Below, piece by piece: positions 25,001 to 27,009 of a stretch of DNA of 64,000 nt. Both the position numbers and the translations under genes were made by a program. The stretch comes from Limisphaerales bacterium (lineage in GTDB: Bacteria; Verrucomicrobiota; Verrucomicrobiia; Limisphaerales; AAA164-E04): assembly GCA_965203425.1 (NCBI GenBank), contig OZ241891.1, positions 172,247 through 236,246 of the forward strand, written 5' to 3'. Every line of letters begins with the position of its first letter. Position 1 is the first letter of the stretch. The notes below the pieces were generated by a model. That model searched no databases. It saw nothing but the letters and a program-made list of their open reading frames with translations, and was not told where the DNA came from.

Positions 25001-25965
25001 TCTAGACGGTTTTCGACGTTTTGAAATTGCCGTTTGATCTGTTTCACGGCCTCTTGAAAGCGGTGATTCGCGCATTCTTGACAGCTCGAAAACAAGCTTT
25101 GCGCTCGCCAAAACTTTTCAGCAATCCGCTTCGCCCGCCGGCGTCCAAAGACAAACCCAAGGCCATACAAAGCCAAAACGCCAAAACATCCACCGGCCAT
25201 CGCAAAGGCCAGCGTCTTCCAGGAAATTCCCAAGGTTTCCAAGGCCGCAGGCGTCCAAAAAATCCCTCCCCCAACGCCAAGAATACTTGCCAAAATCAAC
25301 CACAAACGAACCCAAGCAAAAAGTCTCGCAACAAGATTTTGGGACAACTGATTCAACTCCGCCTCCCAATGGCCGACCGTCTCCCGAAATCCTCGCAGAA
25401 CAGCGTGCTCATCAGAATATTCGGAAAGAAAAACCGCGTCGTTTTCAATCTGTCGGCGGAGCAAGTCTACCCAAGAAGCATACCCGCGAAACAAACGCCG
25501 AGAACGATCCGTCAGGCTTTGGAAACGCTCCGCTTCCTCTTGCAATTCCTGTTGAAAATCTTGCTGTTCACGCTTTGCCGATTGCAAAGCGGCATCGTGT
25601 TCTCGGCTCGCGTGCAACAGGATTTTTTGATTTTCGTACTTTTGCTGGCTACGCAATTGATCCGCCGATTGTCGAATCGTAGCCAAAGCGCGTTCGGCGG
25701 CCTGTTGGATTCGAAGTTTTCGGGACAAATTCAGCGCGCGAATCTTCGACTCCTCCGCTTCAAAATTTGCAAGTGCCTGCCGTTTCGCCTCTGCTTCTTG
25801 CCGGCGGAATCGTTCTTTCAAAAGACTGTATCGGCGCCGAATTTCTTTCAGTTCTTTGTCATGTTCGGCGCGCAAAGCCGACTCTTGGCGAGCCGCATCT
25901 CGAAGCGTTCGCCGTAGCGAATCCACAATCGACAAAGTTTGCCTTGTGGTGAGCAACTCATTCAC
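22045..25965 (-). CDS. Membrane-anchored multi-module FtsK/SpoIIIE-family ATPase (EssC/EccC-like)
   Basis: 1306 aa. It has about 215 aa of N-terminal coiled coil, then hydrophobic segments (LFAWVRLWLILASILGVGGGIFW; LAFAMAGGCFGVLALYGLGFVFG) and a second coiled coil. Three FtsK-like modules follow. The middle one has canonical Walker A VLIAGKTGSGKST and Walker B TLVMIDEFQ. The flanking ones are degenerate (KYHFLVVADFP/GVFLIVHRD and NLLILGQNQETTFS/AIFLIVIGLQSF). Confidence 0.8.
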   Translation of the reverse strand: MNELLTTRQTLSIVDSLRRTLRDAARQESALRAEHDKELKEIRRRYSLLKERFRRQEAEAKRQALANFEAEESKIRALNLSRKLRIQQAAERALATIRQSADQLRSQQKYENQKILLHASREHDAALQSAKREQQDFQQELQEEAERFQSLTDRSRRLFRGYASWVDLLRRQIENDAVFLSEYSDEHAVLRGFRETVGHWEAELNQLSQNLVARLFAWVRLWLILASILGVGGGIFWTPAALETLGISWKTLAFAMAGGCFGVLALYGLGFVFGRRRAKRIAEKFWRAQSLFSSCQECANHRFQEAVKQIKRQFQNVENRLEQARHSADAEASRRLQSGTEKLEAQRERLLRQHERRFQAALASHRSSGGLAGDEFASELARAETEKTRLAAEVSAQFRNRMNDLSREWRAKTSGFLRDLERSRKAGAEVFLDWKPSAWADWAPAVGEAAAARFAELEVNLNCLTEELPQGAQPAWSKGNSLAVPLVVKMPVGESLLFETDDAKSSAEVISAMNGILLRLLTSSPAGKIALRIFDPAGLGQNFAGLMHLADYDEQIIHRRIWTQADHLDRCLRELTEHMEKVTQMCLRNEYETLAQYNEAAGSIAEKYHFLVVADFPVGFSEAAFRRLQSIVTSGPRCGVFLIVHRDLRQPLPDKALEEDLRSHCQWLRLRSGDCEFCGRRWRGLRLRWDALPNAELAVEILRKVGQTSADGGRVEVPFESVAPKADKLWSQRADVGVQVPIGRTGASKWQHLTLGKGTQQHVLIAGKTGSGKSTLFHVIATNLALWFGPDQVEFYLVDFKKGVEFQCYARRRLPHARVVAIESDREFGLGVLERVDEELRRRGELFRQRGAQDLPSYHKAAPGETLPRTLVMIDEFQEYFVEEDKVSQNAAALLDRIIRQGRAFGIHMILGSQTLGGAYTLARTTLAQMAVRIALQCDEADACLIMDENNAAPKWLSRPGEGVYNDSGGVLEGNRPFQTVWLSDAERDCQLKQIRQLADKTTWQNKKPIIFEGNAPADIAENTLLAAALKNNPSKTPNKIRAWLGDPNAIKGPTEAIFELQNGNNLLILGQNQETTFSLVLCSIISLAAHYPAKQAQFWILDSIPNHAPHRKLIDSLPTILPHPIRTLKNTNLDTMMQEADAEKRRRQTNENTSPAIFLIVIGLQSFKKLRPQDEFAIPIHADDAQSEKTATTFNQIIHDGGKLGIRTIATTDTYNNLQKSLNRNTLPEFEMRILLQMSANDSASLIDSTQANQLGLHRALLCHERKGWQETFRPYALPKSDWLAQTKSLLDQRQQQPKTTSHPT

Positions 25966-26167
25966 AATCCCGTCTCACTTTCGCGAAAATTGCTTCGAGT
26001 TTCTCCATCGCGTCCACCGCCCGCCGAACGCTTGGCTCCAACTCTTTCAAATAATTCCGCTCAAAATCTTCCGCCTTTCGATCTTGCCAAAACTGCCGAG
26101 TCTCTTTCCAATACCGCAGCAAGTCTTTTGTCAAAACCGTCAAATGATGCCGTCCGTACAAACTCAT
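25958..26167 (-). CDS. Small helical protein, WXG100-like (W-Q-D variant)
   Basis: 69 aa, predicted all-helical by composition. The motif FWQDRKAEDF has W+8 aromatic spacing as in WXG100 proteins. It overlaps the ATPase start by 8 nt and the upstream gene by 4 nt. Confidence 0.45.
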   Translation of the reverse strand: MSLYGRHHLTVLTKDLLRYWKETRQFWQDRKAEDFERNYLKELEPSVRRAVDAMEKLEAIFAKVRRDCE

Positions 26168-26733
26168 GCCTTGCGATCCAAATCCGCTTGCGCGCCGTCG
26201 GCAGAAAACTTGGCAGGCGCCGCTGTTTCACCCTTTTCCAAAGAGTGCAAGGCTTCGGCGCTTCCAAGCTCGCTCCAATAACCATCCAGCGAGCGCAGAA
26301 TTCGCTCCAAACCGGCGCTCCCTTTCTTAATATCCTGAATCAAGACGGTTCTCAACTTTTCCACTTCGCGTCCCAAAGCCTCCGCATCGCCTTCATAGCG
26401 ACGGATCCATAGCCTCGTCAAACGAAGTTTTTCTTCGGCTTGACGCAGCGAGATTTTGGCGCGGCGAACCGCCATTTGCCGCGCTTCGCTAGACTGCTTG
26501 AACGGAGAAAGCCTCGCCCCAAAAGCCTCGTGCTTTGCTTCTTCCAAAGCGCGGGAACGCAAACGCAGTTGACGCTCCCAAAACTTCTGCCGTTCCTGCA
26601 ACCAAACTCGCATGCGCCGCACTTCGCCGTCCGCTTCATCCACCACCAGCGTCGCCTTCTCCAAATAACGAACCAAGCGCGTCCGAAAGACTTCCAACGC
26701 CTCCGCAGAAGACAAATGGGCTTTGTCCGGCAC
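26164..26733 (-). CDS. Helical/coiled-coil protein of the FtsK-like ATPase operon
   Basis: 189 aa, Arg/Glu/Leu-rich heptad-like sequence that contains KFWERQLRLRSRALEEA. It is translationally coupled to the downstream gene (ATGA overlap). Confidence 0.45.
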   Translation of the reverse strand: MPDKAHLSSAEALEVFRTRLVRYLEKATLVVDEADGEVRRMRVWLQERQKFWERQLRLRSRALEEAKHEAFGARLSPFKQSSEARQMAVRRAKISLRQAEEKLRLTRLWIRRYEGDAEALGREVEKLRTVLIQDIKKGSAGLERILRSLDGYWSELGSAEALHSLEKGETAAPAKFSADGAQADLDRKA

Positions 26734-26736
26734 GGG

Positions 26737-27009
26737 CTATCGCTGCTCCAAATACGCTTCAATGCGCCGCGCCTTGCGCAGCAGAAACGGCGCATGCCGA
26801 TCCGAAACTTCAATAAACTTCCTCAAGGCGCGCATCGTCTGCCCAAACTCATCGGCAAACTTCCGATGCTCCTGATCCTGCCAACTATCTCCCAACGCCT
26901 TGAAACGCGCCTCCAACAACGACATCCCCTGTTGCAAACCGGTATTGAAGGTTTTGAGTTCCTTCGCAAACCGCCGCACTTCTTCCGGATCCATAATTGC
27001 CTGCGACAT
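26737..27009 (-). CDS. WXG100-like small helical hairpin protein (W-Q-D variant)
   Basis: 90 aa from ATG 27009 (MSQAIMDPEEVRRFAKEL...). The central motif GDSWQDQEHRKF has W at residue 43 with an aromatic at W+8, matching my recollection of ESAT-6 Trp43 and its W+8 aromatic. Confidence 0.5.
   Translation of the reverse strand: MSQAIMDPEEVRRFAKELKTFNTGLQQGMSLLEARFKALGDSWQDQEHRKFADEFGQTMRALRKFIEVSDRHAPFLLRKARRIEAYLEQR

What the first reader, a model, noticed from the sequence alone, without database searches (positions are those of the whole stretch)
25958..27009. Small helical proteins share a W-Q-D-x5-F motif where WXG100 proteins carry W-x-G
The 90-aa protein has GDSWQDQEHRKF with Trp at residue 43. 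The 69-aa protein has RQFWQDRKAEDF. Both have an aromatic residue exactly 8 positions after the Trp. By my recollection this matches ESAT-6 (W43-G-G-S-G-S-E-A-Y). The 189-aa protein between them contains a related KFWERQL segment. The three may therefore be diverged paralogs or substrate-chaperone partners. A Gly-to-Asp change at the hairpin turn would define a new subfamily.
Basis: partly seen in the sequence, partly recalled or inferred. Interest (0 to 1): 0.6.

Follow-up and report, generated by a model that had tools for sequence, protein, structure and literature searches.

The report
WxD-type WXG100 secretion-substrate gene trio
Three small helical-protein genes next to a type VII-like secretion ATPase in a Verrucomicrobial genome: the Trp-x-Asp turn motif is real and conserved, but it marks a WXG100 branch already known from Helicobacter pylori HP0062.

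Summary
W-Q-D-x5-F occurs at W43–F51 of the 90-aa protein and W27–F35 of the 69-aa protein. It occurs nowhere else in the six-frame translation of the window.

- **90-aa protein:** it passes Pfam WXG100 (38.4 bits, cut-off 27.3). Its closest solved relative is H. pylori HP0062, whose "WRD" hairpin bend was noted in print in 2012. Among its 150 best relatives 145 have W-x-D and none W-x-G. The Gly-to-Asp branch is therefore real and large, but not new.
- **69-aa protein:** it belongs to an unannotated family of at least 1,393 sequences. AlphaFold2 predicts a helix–turn–helix with W-Q-D in the turn. Its profile similarity to the 90-aa family rests on the motif alone, so common descent is plausible but unproven.
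- **189-aa protein:** it is not a WXG100 relative. KFWERQL lies inside a long helix.
- **Context:** the order 90 / ~190 / ~70 aa / FtsK-type ATPase recurs in Verrucomicrobiota, Planctomycetota and other lineages. In some, the middle protein carries an extra C-terminal domain. At the same position on a Helicobacter plasmid sits a nuclease toxin with its immunity gene.

I read the trio as the substrate module of a minimal type VII-like system, resembling LXG–Lap complexes. Complex formation and export are inferred, not shown.

The parts
26737..27009 (-). 90-aa WXG100-superfamily protein of the W-x-D (HP0062-like) clade
   Evidence: Pfam WXG100 38.4 bits, above the 27.3 cut-off. NCBIfam TIGR03930 30 bits, below its 44.85 cut-off. 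Best solved relative is HP0062 (3FX7/2GTS), E=1.2e-5 over the full length. 853 cluster representatives at 50% identity with E<=1e-3.
26857..26883 (-). W43-Q-D-Q-E-H-R-K-F51 turn motif of the 90-aa protein
   Evidence: Position. W43 and D45 invariant, F51 at least 90% conserved in 35 diverse relatives. 145 of 151 sequences (the window's protein plus its 150 best relatives) have W-x-D and none W-x-G.
26164..26733 (-). 189-aa protein: long two-helix hairpin followed by a variable acidic, low-confidence tail; putative cargo or carrier subunit
   Evidence: AF2 on 21 sequences: helices 9-73 and 81-166, pLDDT 78.6, residues 166-188 below 50. Foldseek finds only generic coiled-coil hairpins. No Pfam or PDB sequence match. 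The N-terminal ~165 aa is homologous to longer proteins in other phyla.
25958..26167 (-). 69-aa helix-turn-helix protein, member of an unannotated family
   Evidence: At least 1,393 profile hits at E<=0.1; none of the 120 listed has a Pfam domain. AF2: helices 3-26 and 30-68, loop 27-29 = W-Q-D, pLDDT 83.8. hhalign against the 90-aa clade: E=1.6e-3; score 26 against shuffled controls with a maximum of 19.
26063..26089 (-). W27-Q-D-R-K-A-E-D-F35 turn motif of the 69-aa protein
   Evidence: Also present in distant syntenic orthologs: L020 WDDEKARWF, L023 WRDESARAF, L022 WNDPVQKRY, L105 WHDKRAERF, L106 WQDGVGRNF.
22045..25965 (-). 1306-aa membrane FtsK/SpoIIIE ATPase, EccC/EssC-like
   Evidence: Pfam FtsK_SpoIIIE 4.9e-28. 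Best NCBIfam models are EccCa, EccCb and EssC, all far below their cut-offs. Best solved relatives are T. curvata EccC 2.8e-30, EccC5 1.5e-23 and YukB 2.8e-18, against FtsK at 5e-8. One Walker A (GKTGSGKS, residue 767), two hydrophobic segments at about 211-274, and a C-terminal domain homologous to the active one but without a P-loop.
27048..27485 (-). 145-aa upstream neighbour with at least one hydrophobic segment; not part of the conserved core
   Evidence: Found only in the closest relatives L004 and L005. Other loci carry a peptidase S26-like gene plus a ~160-aa gene instead. No family hits.

Best explanation
The 90-, 189- and 69-aa genes, with the ATPase gene that follows them, form a translationally coupled four-gene cassette. 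It encodes a minimal type VII-like (WXG100 plus FtsK/SpoIIIE) system of the kind already noted in Gram-negative lineages.

- The 90-aa protein is an HP0062-like WXG100 hairpin. In this clade Asp replaces Gly, and in the models it sits immediately before helix 2, where it could cap the helix.
- The 69-aa protein is a shorter hairpin with the same W-x-D-x5-aromatic turn.
- The 189-aa protein is a long two-helix hairpin. Its homologs elsewhere carry variable C-terminal domains.

By analogy with LXG-Lap-Lap and PE-PPE complexes, I infer that the two small hairpins pack onto the long hairpin to form an elongated helical bundle. The cytoplasmic domains of the membrane ATPase would recognise this bundle and export it across the inner membrane.

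Shown here: family membership of the 90-aa protein, the predicted folds, motif conservation, synteny across phyla, and the variable C-terminal part of the middle protein. Inferred: complex formation, recognition by the ATPase, export, and the final destination in a bacterium with two membranes.
For: **90-aa protein**
- Pfam WXG100 above its cut-off.
- HP0062 is the best solved match and itself carries W-R-D-x5-F.

**69-aa protein**
- The AF2 hairpin puts W-Q-D in the 3-residue loop.
- The profile alignment to the 90-aa clade registers on the motif: E=1.6e-3; P=1e-4; score 26 with 0 of 200 column-shuffled controls reaching it.
- There are weak reciprocal HMM cross-hits between the two families.
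- One ortholog (L023) hits Pfam WXG100 at E=0.0047.

**Synteny**
- The four-gene order is kept in 19 genome loci, nearly all labelled Verrucomicrobiota.
- In metagenome loci, 60 of 62 with room have the middle gene and 51 of 54 have the small gene.
- The same three-gene set also occurs in Planctomycetota (L023), a TARA marine contig (L020), L105, L106 and a Thermodesulfobacteriota-like contig (L022).

**Middle protein as carrier**
- Its N-domain is homologous across these loci (3e-29, 1.5e-19 and 1.6e-7; 1e-20 for L105).
- The C-terminal part varies: absent, about 175 aa of unknown fold, or a GNAT domain (32.5 bits against a cut-off of 20.7).
- At the same position on a Helicobacter plasmid sits a WHH nuclease toxin followed by a SUKH immunity gene.

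**ATPase**
- It is closest to T7SS motors.
- It has only one intact P-loop, in the second of its putative FtsK-like domains, as Zhang et al. 2012 describe for Verrucomicrobia and others.

**Model system**
- LXG domains need two small WXG100-like partners that bind either end of the domain (PMC10801868).

**Geometry (arithmetic only)**
- The helices of the 189-aa model have 65 and 86 residues.
- The 69-aa model has 24 and 39. The 90-aa protein has roughly 35 and 43, my estimate from its alignment to HP0062.
- The two small hairpins laid end to end would roughly tile the long one.
Against: - No multimer prediction or experiment was possible, so the complex is hypothetical.
- The 189-aa family has no detectable sequence similarity to LXG or to any solved chain, a set that should include the solved TelA LXG complex. 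Its fold match is generic.
- In this Verrucomicrobial clade the middle protein is 132-216 aa with no cargo domain, and no immunity gene was seen. What would be exported, and why, is unclear.
- No other T7SS membrane component and no outer-membrane conduit was seen among neighbours.
- No canonical YxxxD/E export motif was found by eye in the C-termini.
- The proteobacterial middle and small proteins (L107, L108) are matched only by position, not by HMM, and their small proteins lack W-x-D.
- The 69/90 similarity vanishes when the motif columns are removed.
Confidence: 0.6

Rival explanations
1. The 69-aa protein is not a WXG100 relative. It is an unrelated small helical adaptor, chaperone or regulator that acquired a similar W-x-D-x5-F turn by convergence, for example because both turns contact the same partner.
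For: With the nine motif columns removed, hhalign falls to background (score 12.1, P=0.068). The window's 69-aa protein has no Pfam WXG100 hit at E<=1, and only 3 of 27 family members hit weakly. Helix 1 is only about 24 residues and the protein is 69 aa, not about 100. The third small proteins in the proteobacterial cassettes lack the motif altogether.
Against: The motif sits at the predicted turn exactly as in WXG100. It is conserved in syntenic orthologs across at least four lineages. The profile score is far above the shuffled controls. Adjacent paralogous WXG100 pairs are the rule in T7SSa (PMC3935865).
Confidence: 0.25
2. The cassette is not a protein-export system. It is a cytoplasmic or membrane-associated conflict or signalling module, in which the FtsK-like NTPase and the helical proteins act inside the cell.
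For: Related WXG-FtsK cassettes sit beside VWA/PP2C/Ser-Thr kinase (TerY-P-like) and CARF genes on a Caballeronia plasmid, and beside RadC and GmrSD in L022. Uchiyama et al. report the same TerY-P link. No outer-membrane component was found. The local middle protein has no cargo domain.
Against: The ATPase has two hydrophobic segments and is closest to EccC/EssC export motors, not to DNA translocases. The Helicobacter cassette holds a classic exported-toxin plus immunity pair. PADLOC hits to the cassette's proteins are generic P-loop or coiled-coil matches only. No relative was found on viral contigs.
Confidence: 0.15
3. One reading: all three proteins, including the 189-aa one, are diverged WXG100 paralogs, with KFWERQL a degenerate WXG-type motif.
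For: All three are predicted helical hairpins. W52 of KFWERQL is invariant in the 189-aa family. hhalign aligns the N-terminus of the 189-aa family (SAEALEVFRTRL) to the N-terminus of the 90-aa clade (DPEEVRRFAKEL), without significance.
Against: Profile-profile P=0.21 over only 16 aligned columns, none of them at KFWERQL. KFWERQL lies mid-helix in the model, with the only turn at residues 74-80. No Pfam WXG100 or LXG hit in any of 21 members.
Confidence: 0.07

Closest known systems
Helicobacter pylori HP0062 (PDB 3FX7, 2GTS)
   Same: Best solved sequence match to the 90-aa protein (E=1.2e-5, residues 1-88). It has the same W-x-D-x5-F turn (ESWRDARRDKF). It is a helical hairpin that forms an antiparallel four-helix-bundle dimer and clusters with an FtsK/SpoIIIE gene. 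PMC3397514 notes 'WRD' explicitly as the counterpart of WXG.
   Different: Only distantly similar in sequence and from an epsilonproteobacterium. Its function is also unknown. Whether the H. pylori chromosomal locus keeps the middle and small partner genes was not examined here; a Helicobacter plasmid cassette does.
'Solo WXG + distinct YueA-like ATPase' systems of Gram-negative lineages (Zhang et al. 2012, Biol Direct, Table 1 note 6)
   Same: [quoted passage not shown] The window's ATPase has one Walker A at residue 767, flanked by degenerate regions.
   Different: That note calls the WXG domains 'solo' and the systems 'mobile'. Here the WXG gene is always followed by two further conserved helical-protein genes. 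In several Verrucomicrobial genomes the cassette sits in a stable chromosomal context next to def and parB. No relative was found on viral contigs.
LXG toxin-Lap1/Lap2 (Lap3/Lap4) targeting complexes of T7SSb (Klein et al. 2022, 2024)
   Same: Both have a long N-terminal helical domain with a variable C-terminal part and two adjacent genes for small WXG100-like helix-turn-helix partners. In T7SSb the heterotrimer is the export signal.
   Different: There is no sequence similarity to LXG or Lap families, apart from one weak YwqH-like hit in L022 (E=0.014). The gene order differs: here the small genes flank the long one. No FxxxD or YxxxD/E motif was seen by eye. The local long protein has no toxin domain. 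The host has an outer membrane.
ESAT-6/CFP-10 (EsxA/EsxB) and sagEsxA-like WXG100 proteins
   Same: Same Pfam family for the 90-aa protein. Trp at the hairpin turn with an aromatic residue at +8 (ESAT-6 W43/Y51; EsxB W...F aligned). Linked to an EccC/EssC-type ATPase.
   Different: Asp replaces Gly at +2. The protein falls below NCBIfam's WXG100_ESAT6 cut-off. ESAT-6's conserved Q55 is Phe here. The other T7SSa/b membrane components are not in the neighbourhood.

Membership tests
WXG100 (Pfam PF06013), 90-aa protein | Profile match above the curated threshold | tested here: met
   38.4 bits against a gathering score of 27.3, residues 6-83 on profile positions 4-81. NCBIfam TIGR03930 gives only 30 bits against 44.85.
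WXG100 (Pfam PF06013), 90-aa protein | About 100 residues forming a helix-turn-helix hairpin | tested here: met
   90 aa. Full-length alignment to HP0062, whose crystal structure is a hairpin dimer. The 90-aa protein itself was not modelled.
WXG100 (Pfam PF06013), 90-aa protein | W-x-G motif at the turn | tested here: not met
   W43-Q-D45. Asp is invariant in 35 diverse relatives, and none of the 150 best relatives has W-x-G. Trp and the +8 aromatic residue are kept.
WXG100 (Pfam PF06013), 90-aa protein | Genomic linkage to an FtsK/SpoIIIE (EccC/EssC-type) ATPase | tested here: met
   Same operon in the window and in all loci with enough sequence.
WXG100 (Pfam PF06013), 90-aa protein | Signal-peptide-independent secretion | not testable with these tools
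   Needs an experiment.
WXG100 superfamily, 69-aa protein | Profile match to WXG100 or a clan member | tested here: not met
   No WXG100 hit at E<=1 for the window's protein. 3 of 27 family members hit weakly (best E=0.03). The L023 ortholog reaches E=0.0047 with 17.6 bits, below the 27.3 cut-off.
WXG100 superfamily, 69-aa protein | Helical hairpin with the conserved Trp at the turn and an aromatic residue at +8 | tested here: met
   AF2: helices 3-26 and 30-68 with W27-Q-D29 in the loop, pLDDT 83.8. F35 is invariant.
WXG100 superfamily, 69-aa protein | Profile-profile homology to bona fide members | tested here: inconclusive
   hhalign E=1.6e-3, probability 16%. With broader alignments P=1e-4, probability 57%; a reversed control gives P=0.1. 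0 of 200 shuffled controls reach the score, but the signal disappears without the nine motif columns.
LXG domain (Pfam PF04740), 189-aa protein | Profile match or conserved L-x-G motif | tested here: not met
   No LXG hit for any of 21 members at E<=1. The profile against PDB sequences finds nothing relevant. None of the invariant columns forms an L-x-G.
LXG domain (Pfam PF04740), 189-aa protein | N-terminal helical domain fused to variable C-terminal effector domains, with two small helical partner genes adjacent | tested here: inconclusive
   The local protein has only an acidic tail. Homologs carry about 175 extra residues (L023) or a GNAT domain (L022). A positional analog on a Helicobacter plasmid carries WHH nuclease plus SUKH immunity. 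Partner genes flank it in nearly all loci.
Type VII secretion system (T7SSa/T7SSb) | Membrane-bound EccC/EssC-type multi-domain FtsK/SpoIIIE ATPase | tested here: met
   Closest solved relatives are EccC, EccC5 and YukB. Two hydrophobic segments and one intact P-loop. It scores far below the NCBIfam equivalog cut-offs (108 against 509, 92 against 778), so it is a distinct branch.
Type VII secretion system (T7SSa/T7SSb) | Other conserved membrane components (EccB/D/E and MycP, or EsaA/EssA/EssB/YukD) | tested here: not met
   None among the window neighbours scanned. None in the precomputed Pfam lists of neighbours in L001-L003, L020 and L023.

The most novel reading that the evidence does not exclude
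PVC-group and other two-membrane bacteria may carry a widespread, so far undescribed tripartite targeting module for a minimal type VII-like exporter. It would consist of a W-x-D WXG100 protein, a long-hairpin carrier whose C-terminus can hold effector domains, and a second, shorter W-x-D hairpin belonging to an unannotated family of more than a thousand sequences. On this reading the LXG-Lap and PE-PPE principle (small hairpins decorating a long hairpin as the export signal) predates the split between Gram-positive lineages and bacteria with an outer membrane. The Verrucomicrobial cargo-less version would have a housekeeping rather than a toxin role.
Probability: 0.3. Interest if true: 0.6.

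Novelty: new member of a known kind. Interest (0 to 1): 0.38.

Why it matters
Type VII secretion is studied almost only in Actinobacteria and Firmicutes. The Gram-negative WXG-FtsK cassettes have been noted in silico since about 2009-2012 but never characterised.

This locus shows that in Verrucomicrobiota, Planctomycetota and several uncultured lineages the WXG100 gene comes with two further conserved helical partners. The layout resembles the LXG-Lap targeting complex. If the three proteins do form an export-competent bundle, that would extend a targeting principle of T7SS to bacteria with an outer membrane. It would also give the 69-aa and 189-aa families their first functional hypothesis.

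It is already documented for HP0062 and so carries little novelty on its own.

Tried and rejected
- **Overlap artefact.** I suspected that the conserved C-terminal D-C-E of the 69-aa protein merely reflects the overlapping GTG start of the ATPase gene. The Cys is kept in L020 and L023, where the genes do not overlap, so I rejected this.
- **Defence system.** PADLOC hits to the cassette's proteins are generic P-loop or coiled-coil matches (SspH, mad8, ZorA).
- **Phage-borne origin.** No relative was found in 2.9 million viral contigs.
- **Export motifs.** No canonical YxxxD/E or FxxxD motif was seen by eye in the C-termini. They are conserved as ...IEEYLxQR (90 aa) and ...[KR]xDCE (69 aa), but match no described signal.
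- **Metagenome scan.** The rerun returned only close (66-88% identical) relatives. It was useful for synteny statistics but not for distant architectures.
- **Literature.** Searches for a described Verrucomicrobial or two-membrane T7SS-like system found only the 2012 footnote and the HP0062 papers.
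Full report
**1. What is there**

On the minus strand the window carries a compact run of genes:
- 145 aa (27048-27485)
- 90 aa (26737-27009)
- 189 aa (26164-26733)
- 69 aa (25958-26167)
- a 1306-aa FtsK/SpoIIIE ATPase (22045-25965)

The last four are separated by a 3-nt gap, a 4-nt overlap and an 8-nt overlap. This points to one translationally coupled operon.

W43 and F51 are in the 90-aa protein, W27 and F35 in the 69-aa protein, and KFWERQL is residues 50-56 of the 189-aa protein. WQD.{5}F occurs only at these two places in the six-frame translation of all 64 kb, with 0.14 occurrences expected. 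The recollection of ESAT-6 (W43-G44-G45, Y51) matches Poulsen et al. 2014.

**2. The 90-aa protein**

- It passes Pfam WXG100 (38.4 bits against 27.3). It falls short of NCBIfam's WXG100_ESAT6 model (30 against 44.85).
- An exhaustive phmmer search found 853 cluster representatives (50% identity clusters) at E<=1e-3.
- Of 151 aligned sequences (the window's protein plus its 150 best relatives), 145 have W-x-D at the WXG position and none has W-x-G.
- In 35 diverse full-length relatives W43 and D45 are invariant and F51 is at least 90% conserved.
- Public sources already name these proteins 'WXG100 family type VII secretion target' or 'YukE', in Planctomycetota, Thermodesulfobacteriota and Verrucomicrobiota.
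- The best solved relative is H. pylori HP0062 (3FX7/2GTS; E=1.2e-5, full length), which reads ESWRDARRDKF at the same place.

The Gly-to-Asp clade is therefore real and large, but already recorded.

**3. The 69-aa protein**

- A first search found only eight close relatives. A profile built from syntenic orthologs then retrieved at least 1,393 proteins at E<=0.1. The 120 listed are nearly all ~68 aa and none has a Pfam domain.
- 123 of 124 retrieved members have W-[KRQ]-D-x-K-x3-F, and 123 of 124 end in D-C-E.
- AlphaFold2 on 27 sequences gives helix 3-26, loop 27-29 (W-Q-D) and helix 30-68, with pLDDT 83.8. This is a hairpin with the motif at the turn and Asp directly before helix 2.
- Profile-profile comparison with the 90-aa clade aligns the two motifs in register: E=1.6e-3, probability 16%. 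With broader alignments it gives P=1e-4, probability 57%; a reversed control gives P=0.1.
- None of 200 column-shuffled controls reaches the real score (26.0; controls mean 10.7, maximum 19.0). Deleting the nine motif columns from both alignments drops the score to 12.1, which is background.
- Pfam WXG100 is hit only weakly by a few family members.

Fold and turn motif are shared. Common descent is plausible but not demonstrated.

**4. The 189-aa protein**

- It has 32 homologs (the one taxon label shown is Verrucomicrobia), with a conserved core and a variable acidic tail.
- AF2 gives two long helices (9-73 and 81-166) with pLDDT 78.6 and a low-confidence tail.
- Foldseek finds only generic long hairpins.
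- There is no Pfam, LXG or PDB sequence match.
- Against the WXG100 clade profile P=0.21, and the aligned stretch is not KFWERQL. KFWERQL is mid-helix in the model.

**5. Context and conservation**

- The order 90 / ~190 / ~69 aa / ~1300-aa ATPase is kept in three complete Verrucomicrobial genomes next to def and parB.
- It is also kept in 16 genome loci, nearly all Limisphaerales, Pedosphaera or other Verrucomicrobiota.
- In metagenome loci, 60 of 62 with room have the middle gene and 51 of 54 have the small gene.
- Distant W-x-D loci keep the same three-gene set:

| Locus | Lineage | Gene order (aa) |
|---|---|---|
| L020 | TARA marine contig | 90 - 195 - 75 - ATPase |
| L023 | Planctomycetota | 90 - 341 - 70 - ATPase |
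| L105 | unassigned | 90 - 176 - 73 - three short ORFs - ATPase |
| L106 | unassigned | 91 - 178 - 77 - two ORFs - ATPase |
| L022 | Thermodesulfobacteriota-like | ATPase - 90 - 474 - 72 |

- The small proteins there carry WDDEKARWF, WRDESARAF, WHDKRAERF, WQDGVGRNF and WNDPVQKRY.
- The middle proteins share the N-terminal ~165 residues (hmmsearch 3e-29, 1.5e-19 and 1.6e-7; 1e-20 for L105). L106's 178-aa middle protein is matched by position only; the HMM did not detect it.
- Their C-termini differ. L023 has about 175 extra residues. L022 has a GNAT domain above the Pfam cut-off.
- On a Helicobacter plasmid the same position holds a protein ending in a WHH nuclease (44.6 bits). It is followed by a SUKH-1 immunity gene, a 77-aa gene and the ATPase.
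- A Caballeronia plasmid has WXG100(WQD) - 436 aa - 113 aa - 76 aa - FtsK, beside CARF, VWA, PP2C and kinase genes.
- The proteobacterial middle and small proteins are matched by position only, and their small proteins lack W-x-D.

**6. The ATPase**

- Its best solved relatives are T7SS motors: T. curvata EccC 2.8e-30, EccC5 1.5e-23 and YukB 2.8e-18. FtsK itself scores 5e-8.
- It has two hydrophobic segments at about 211-274, one Walker A (GKTGSGKS at 767) with a Walker B at 871, and a C-terminal domain homologous to the active one but without a P-loop.
- This matches the description by Zhang et al. [quoted passage not shown] They found it with solo WXG domains in proteobacteria, planctomycetes, verrucomicrobia and others.
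- Uchiyama et al. [quoted passage not shown]

**7. Mechanism**

The closest worked-out model is the LXG-Lap-Lap heterotrimer of T7SSb. Two small WXG100-like hairpins bind either end of a long helical LXG domain, and the bundle, not the toxin domain, is what is exported.

The present three genes have the same logic: two small hairpin genes flanking a long-hairpin gene whose homologs carry variable C-terminal domains. The helix lengths are compatible with two small hairpins tiling the long one (this is arithmetic, not a test).

I therefore propose a 90/189/69 bundle recognised by the ATPase and moved across the inner membrane.

Points against, or still open:
- There is no sequence link to LXG or Lap families.
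- No canonical export motif was seen.
- This clade has no cargo domain and no immunity gene was seen.
- No other T7SS components or outer-membrane conduit were found.
- No interaction data exist.

Rival readings are listed with their tests: a convergent motif, a non-secretory conflict module, and three-way paralogy.

**8. Verdict**

- Observation: confirmed.
- Interpretation: partly supported.
- Novelty: the locus is a new member of the known Gram-negative WXG-FtsK kind. The W-x-D feature is already documented.
- The unannotated 69-aa and 189-aa families and the conserved three-gene layout are the parts worth following up.

Noticed in passing
window 53602-54287 (inside the minus-strand ORF 53275-54771): Overlapping arrays of 66-nt tandem repeats (72-87% matches) fall inside a 498-aa ORF. 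They would encode 22-residue repeats, probably leucine-rich-repeat-like.
   Followed up: no
window 27555-28877 (-), and the 69-nt gap 27486-27554: A type II N6/N4 DNA methyltransferase lies just upstream of the cassette (Pfam PF01555; PADLOC MTase_II 6e-72). In the close relatives L004 and L005 a 193-aa ORF, possibly the cognate endonuclease, sits between it and the 145-aa gene. That ORF is absent here, so this methyltransferase may be an orphan.
   Followed up: partly
L108 8001-12403 (Helicobacter sp. plasmid NZ_AP024820): A plasmid-borne cassette reads WXG100-like (WGD) - 340-aa protein with a C-terminal WHH nuclease - SUKH-1 immunity protein - 77-aa protein - FtsK/SpoIIIE ATPase. This is a polymorphic toxin/immunity pair embedded in a Gram-negative WXG-FtsK module.
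   Followed up: partly
L107 8267-18250 (Caballeronia plasmid NZ_CP049321): A WXG100(WQD) - 436 aa - 113 aa - 76 aa - FtsK cassette is flanked by VWA, CARF, PP2C phosphatase and Ser/Thr kinase genes. The TerY-P-like association resembles the one reported for H. pylori islands.
   Followed up: no
L104 7001-12788: A W-x-D WXG100 gene is followed by a 136-aa protein with an 'INGRHR' ParB-like motif and a 1435-aa ATPase that fuses TPR repeats to the FtsK domain. A Ser/Thr kinase gene lies upstream. This is a different architecture from the usual three-gene set.
   Followed up: no
window 25958-25969: The conserved C-terminal Asp-Cys-Glu of the 69-aa protein overlaps the GTG start of the ATPase gene (GAT TGT GAA TGA). 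The Cys is kept in orthologs whose genes do not overlap (L020, L023), so it appears to be a protein-level constraint of unknown role.
   Followed up: partly
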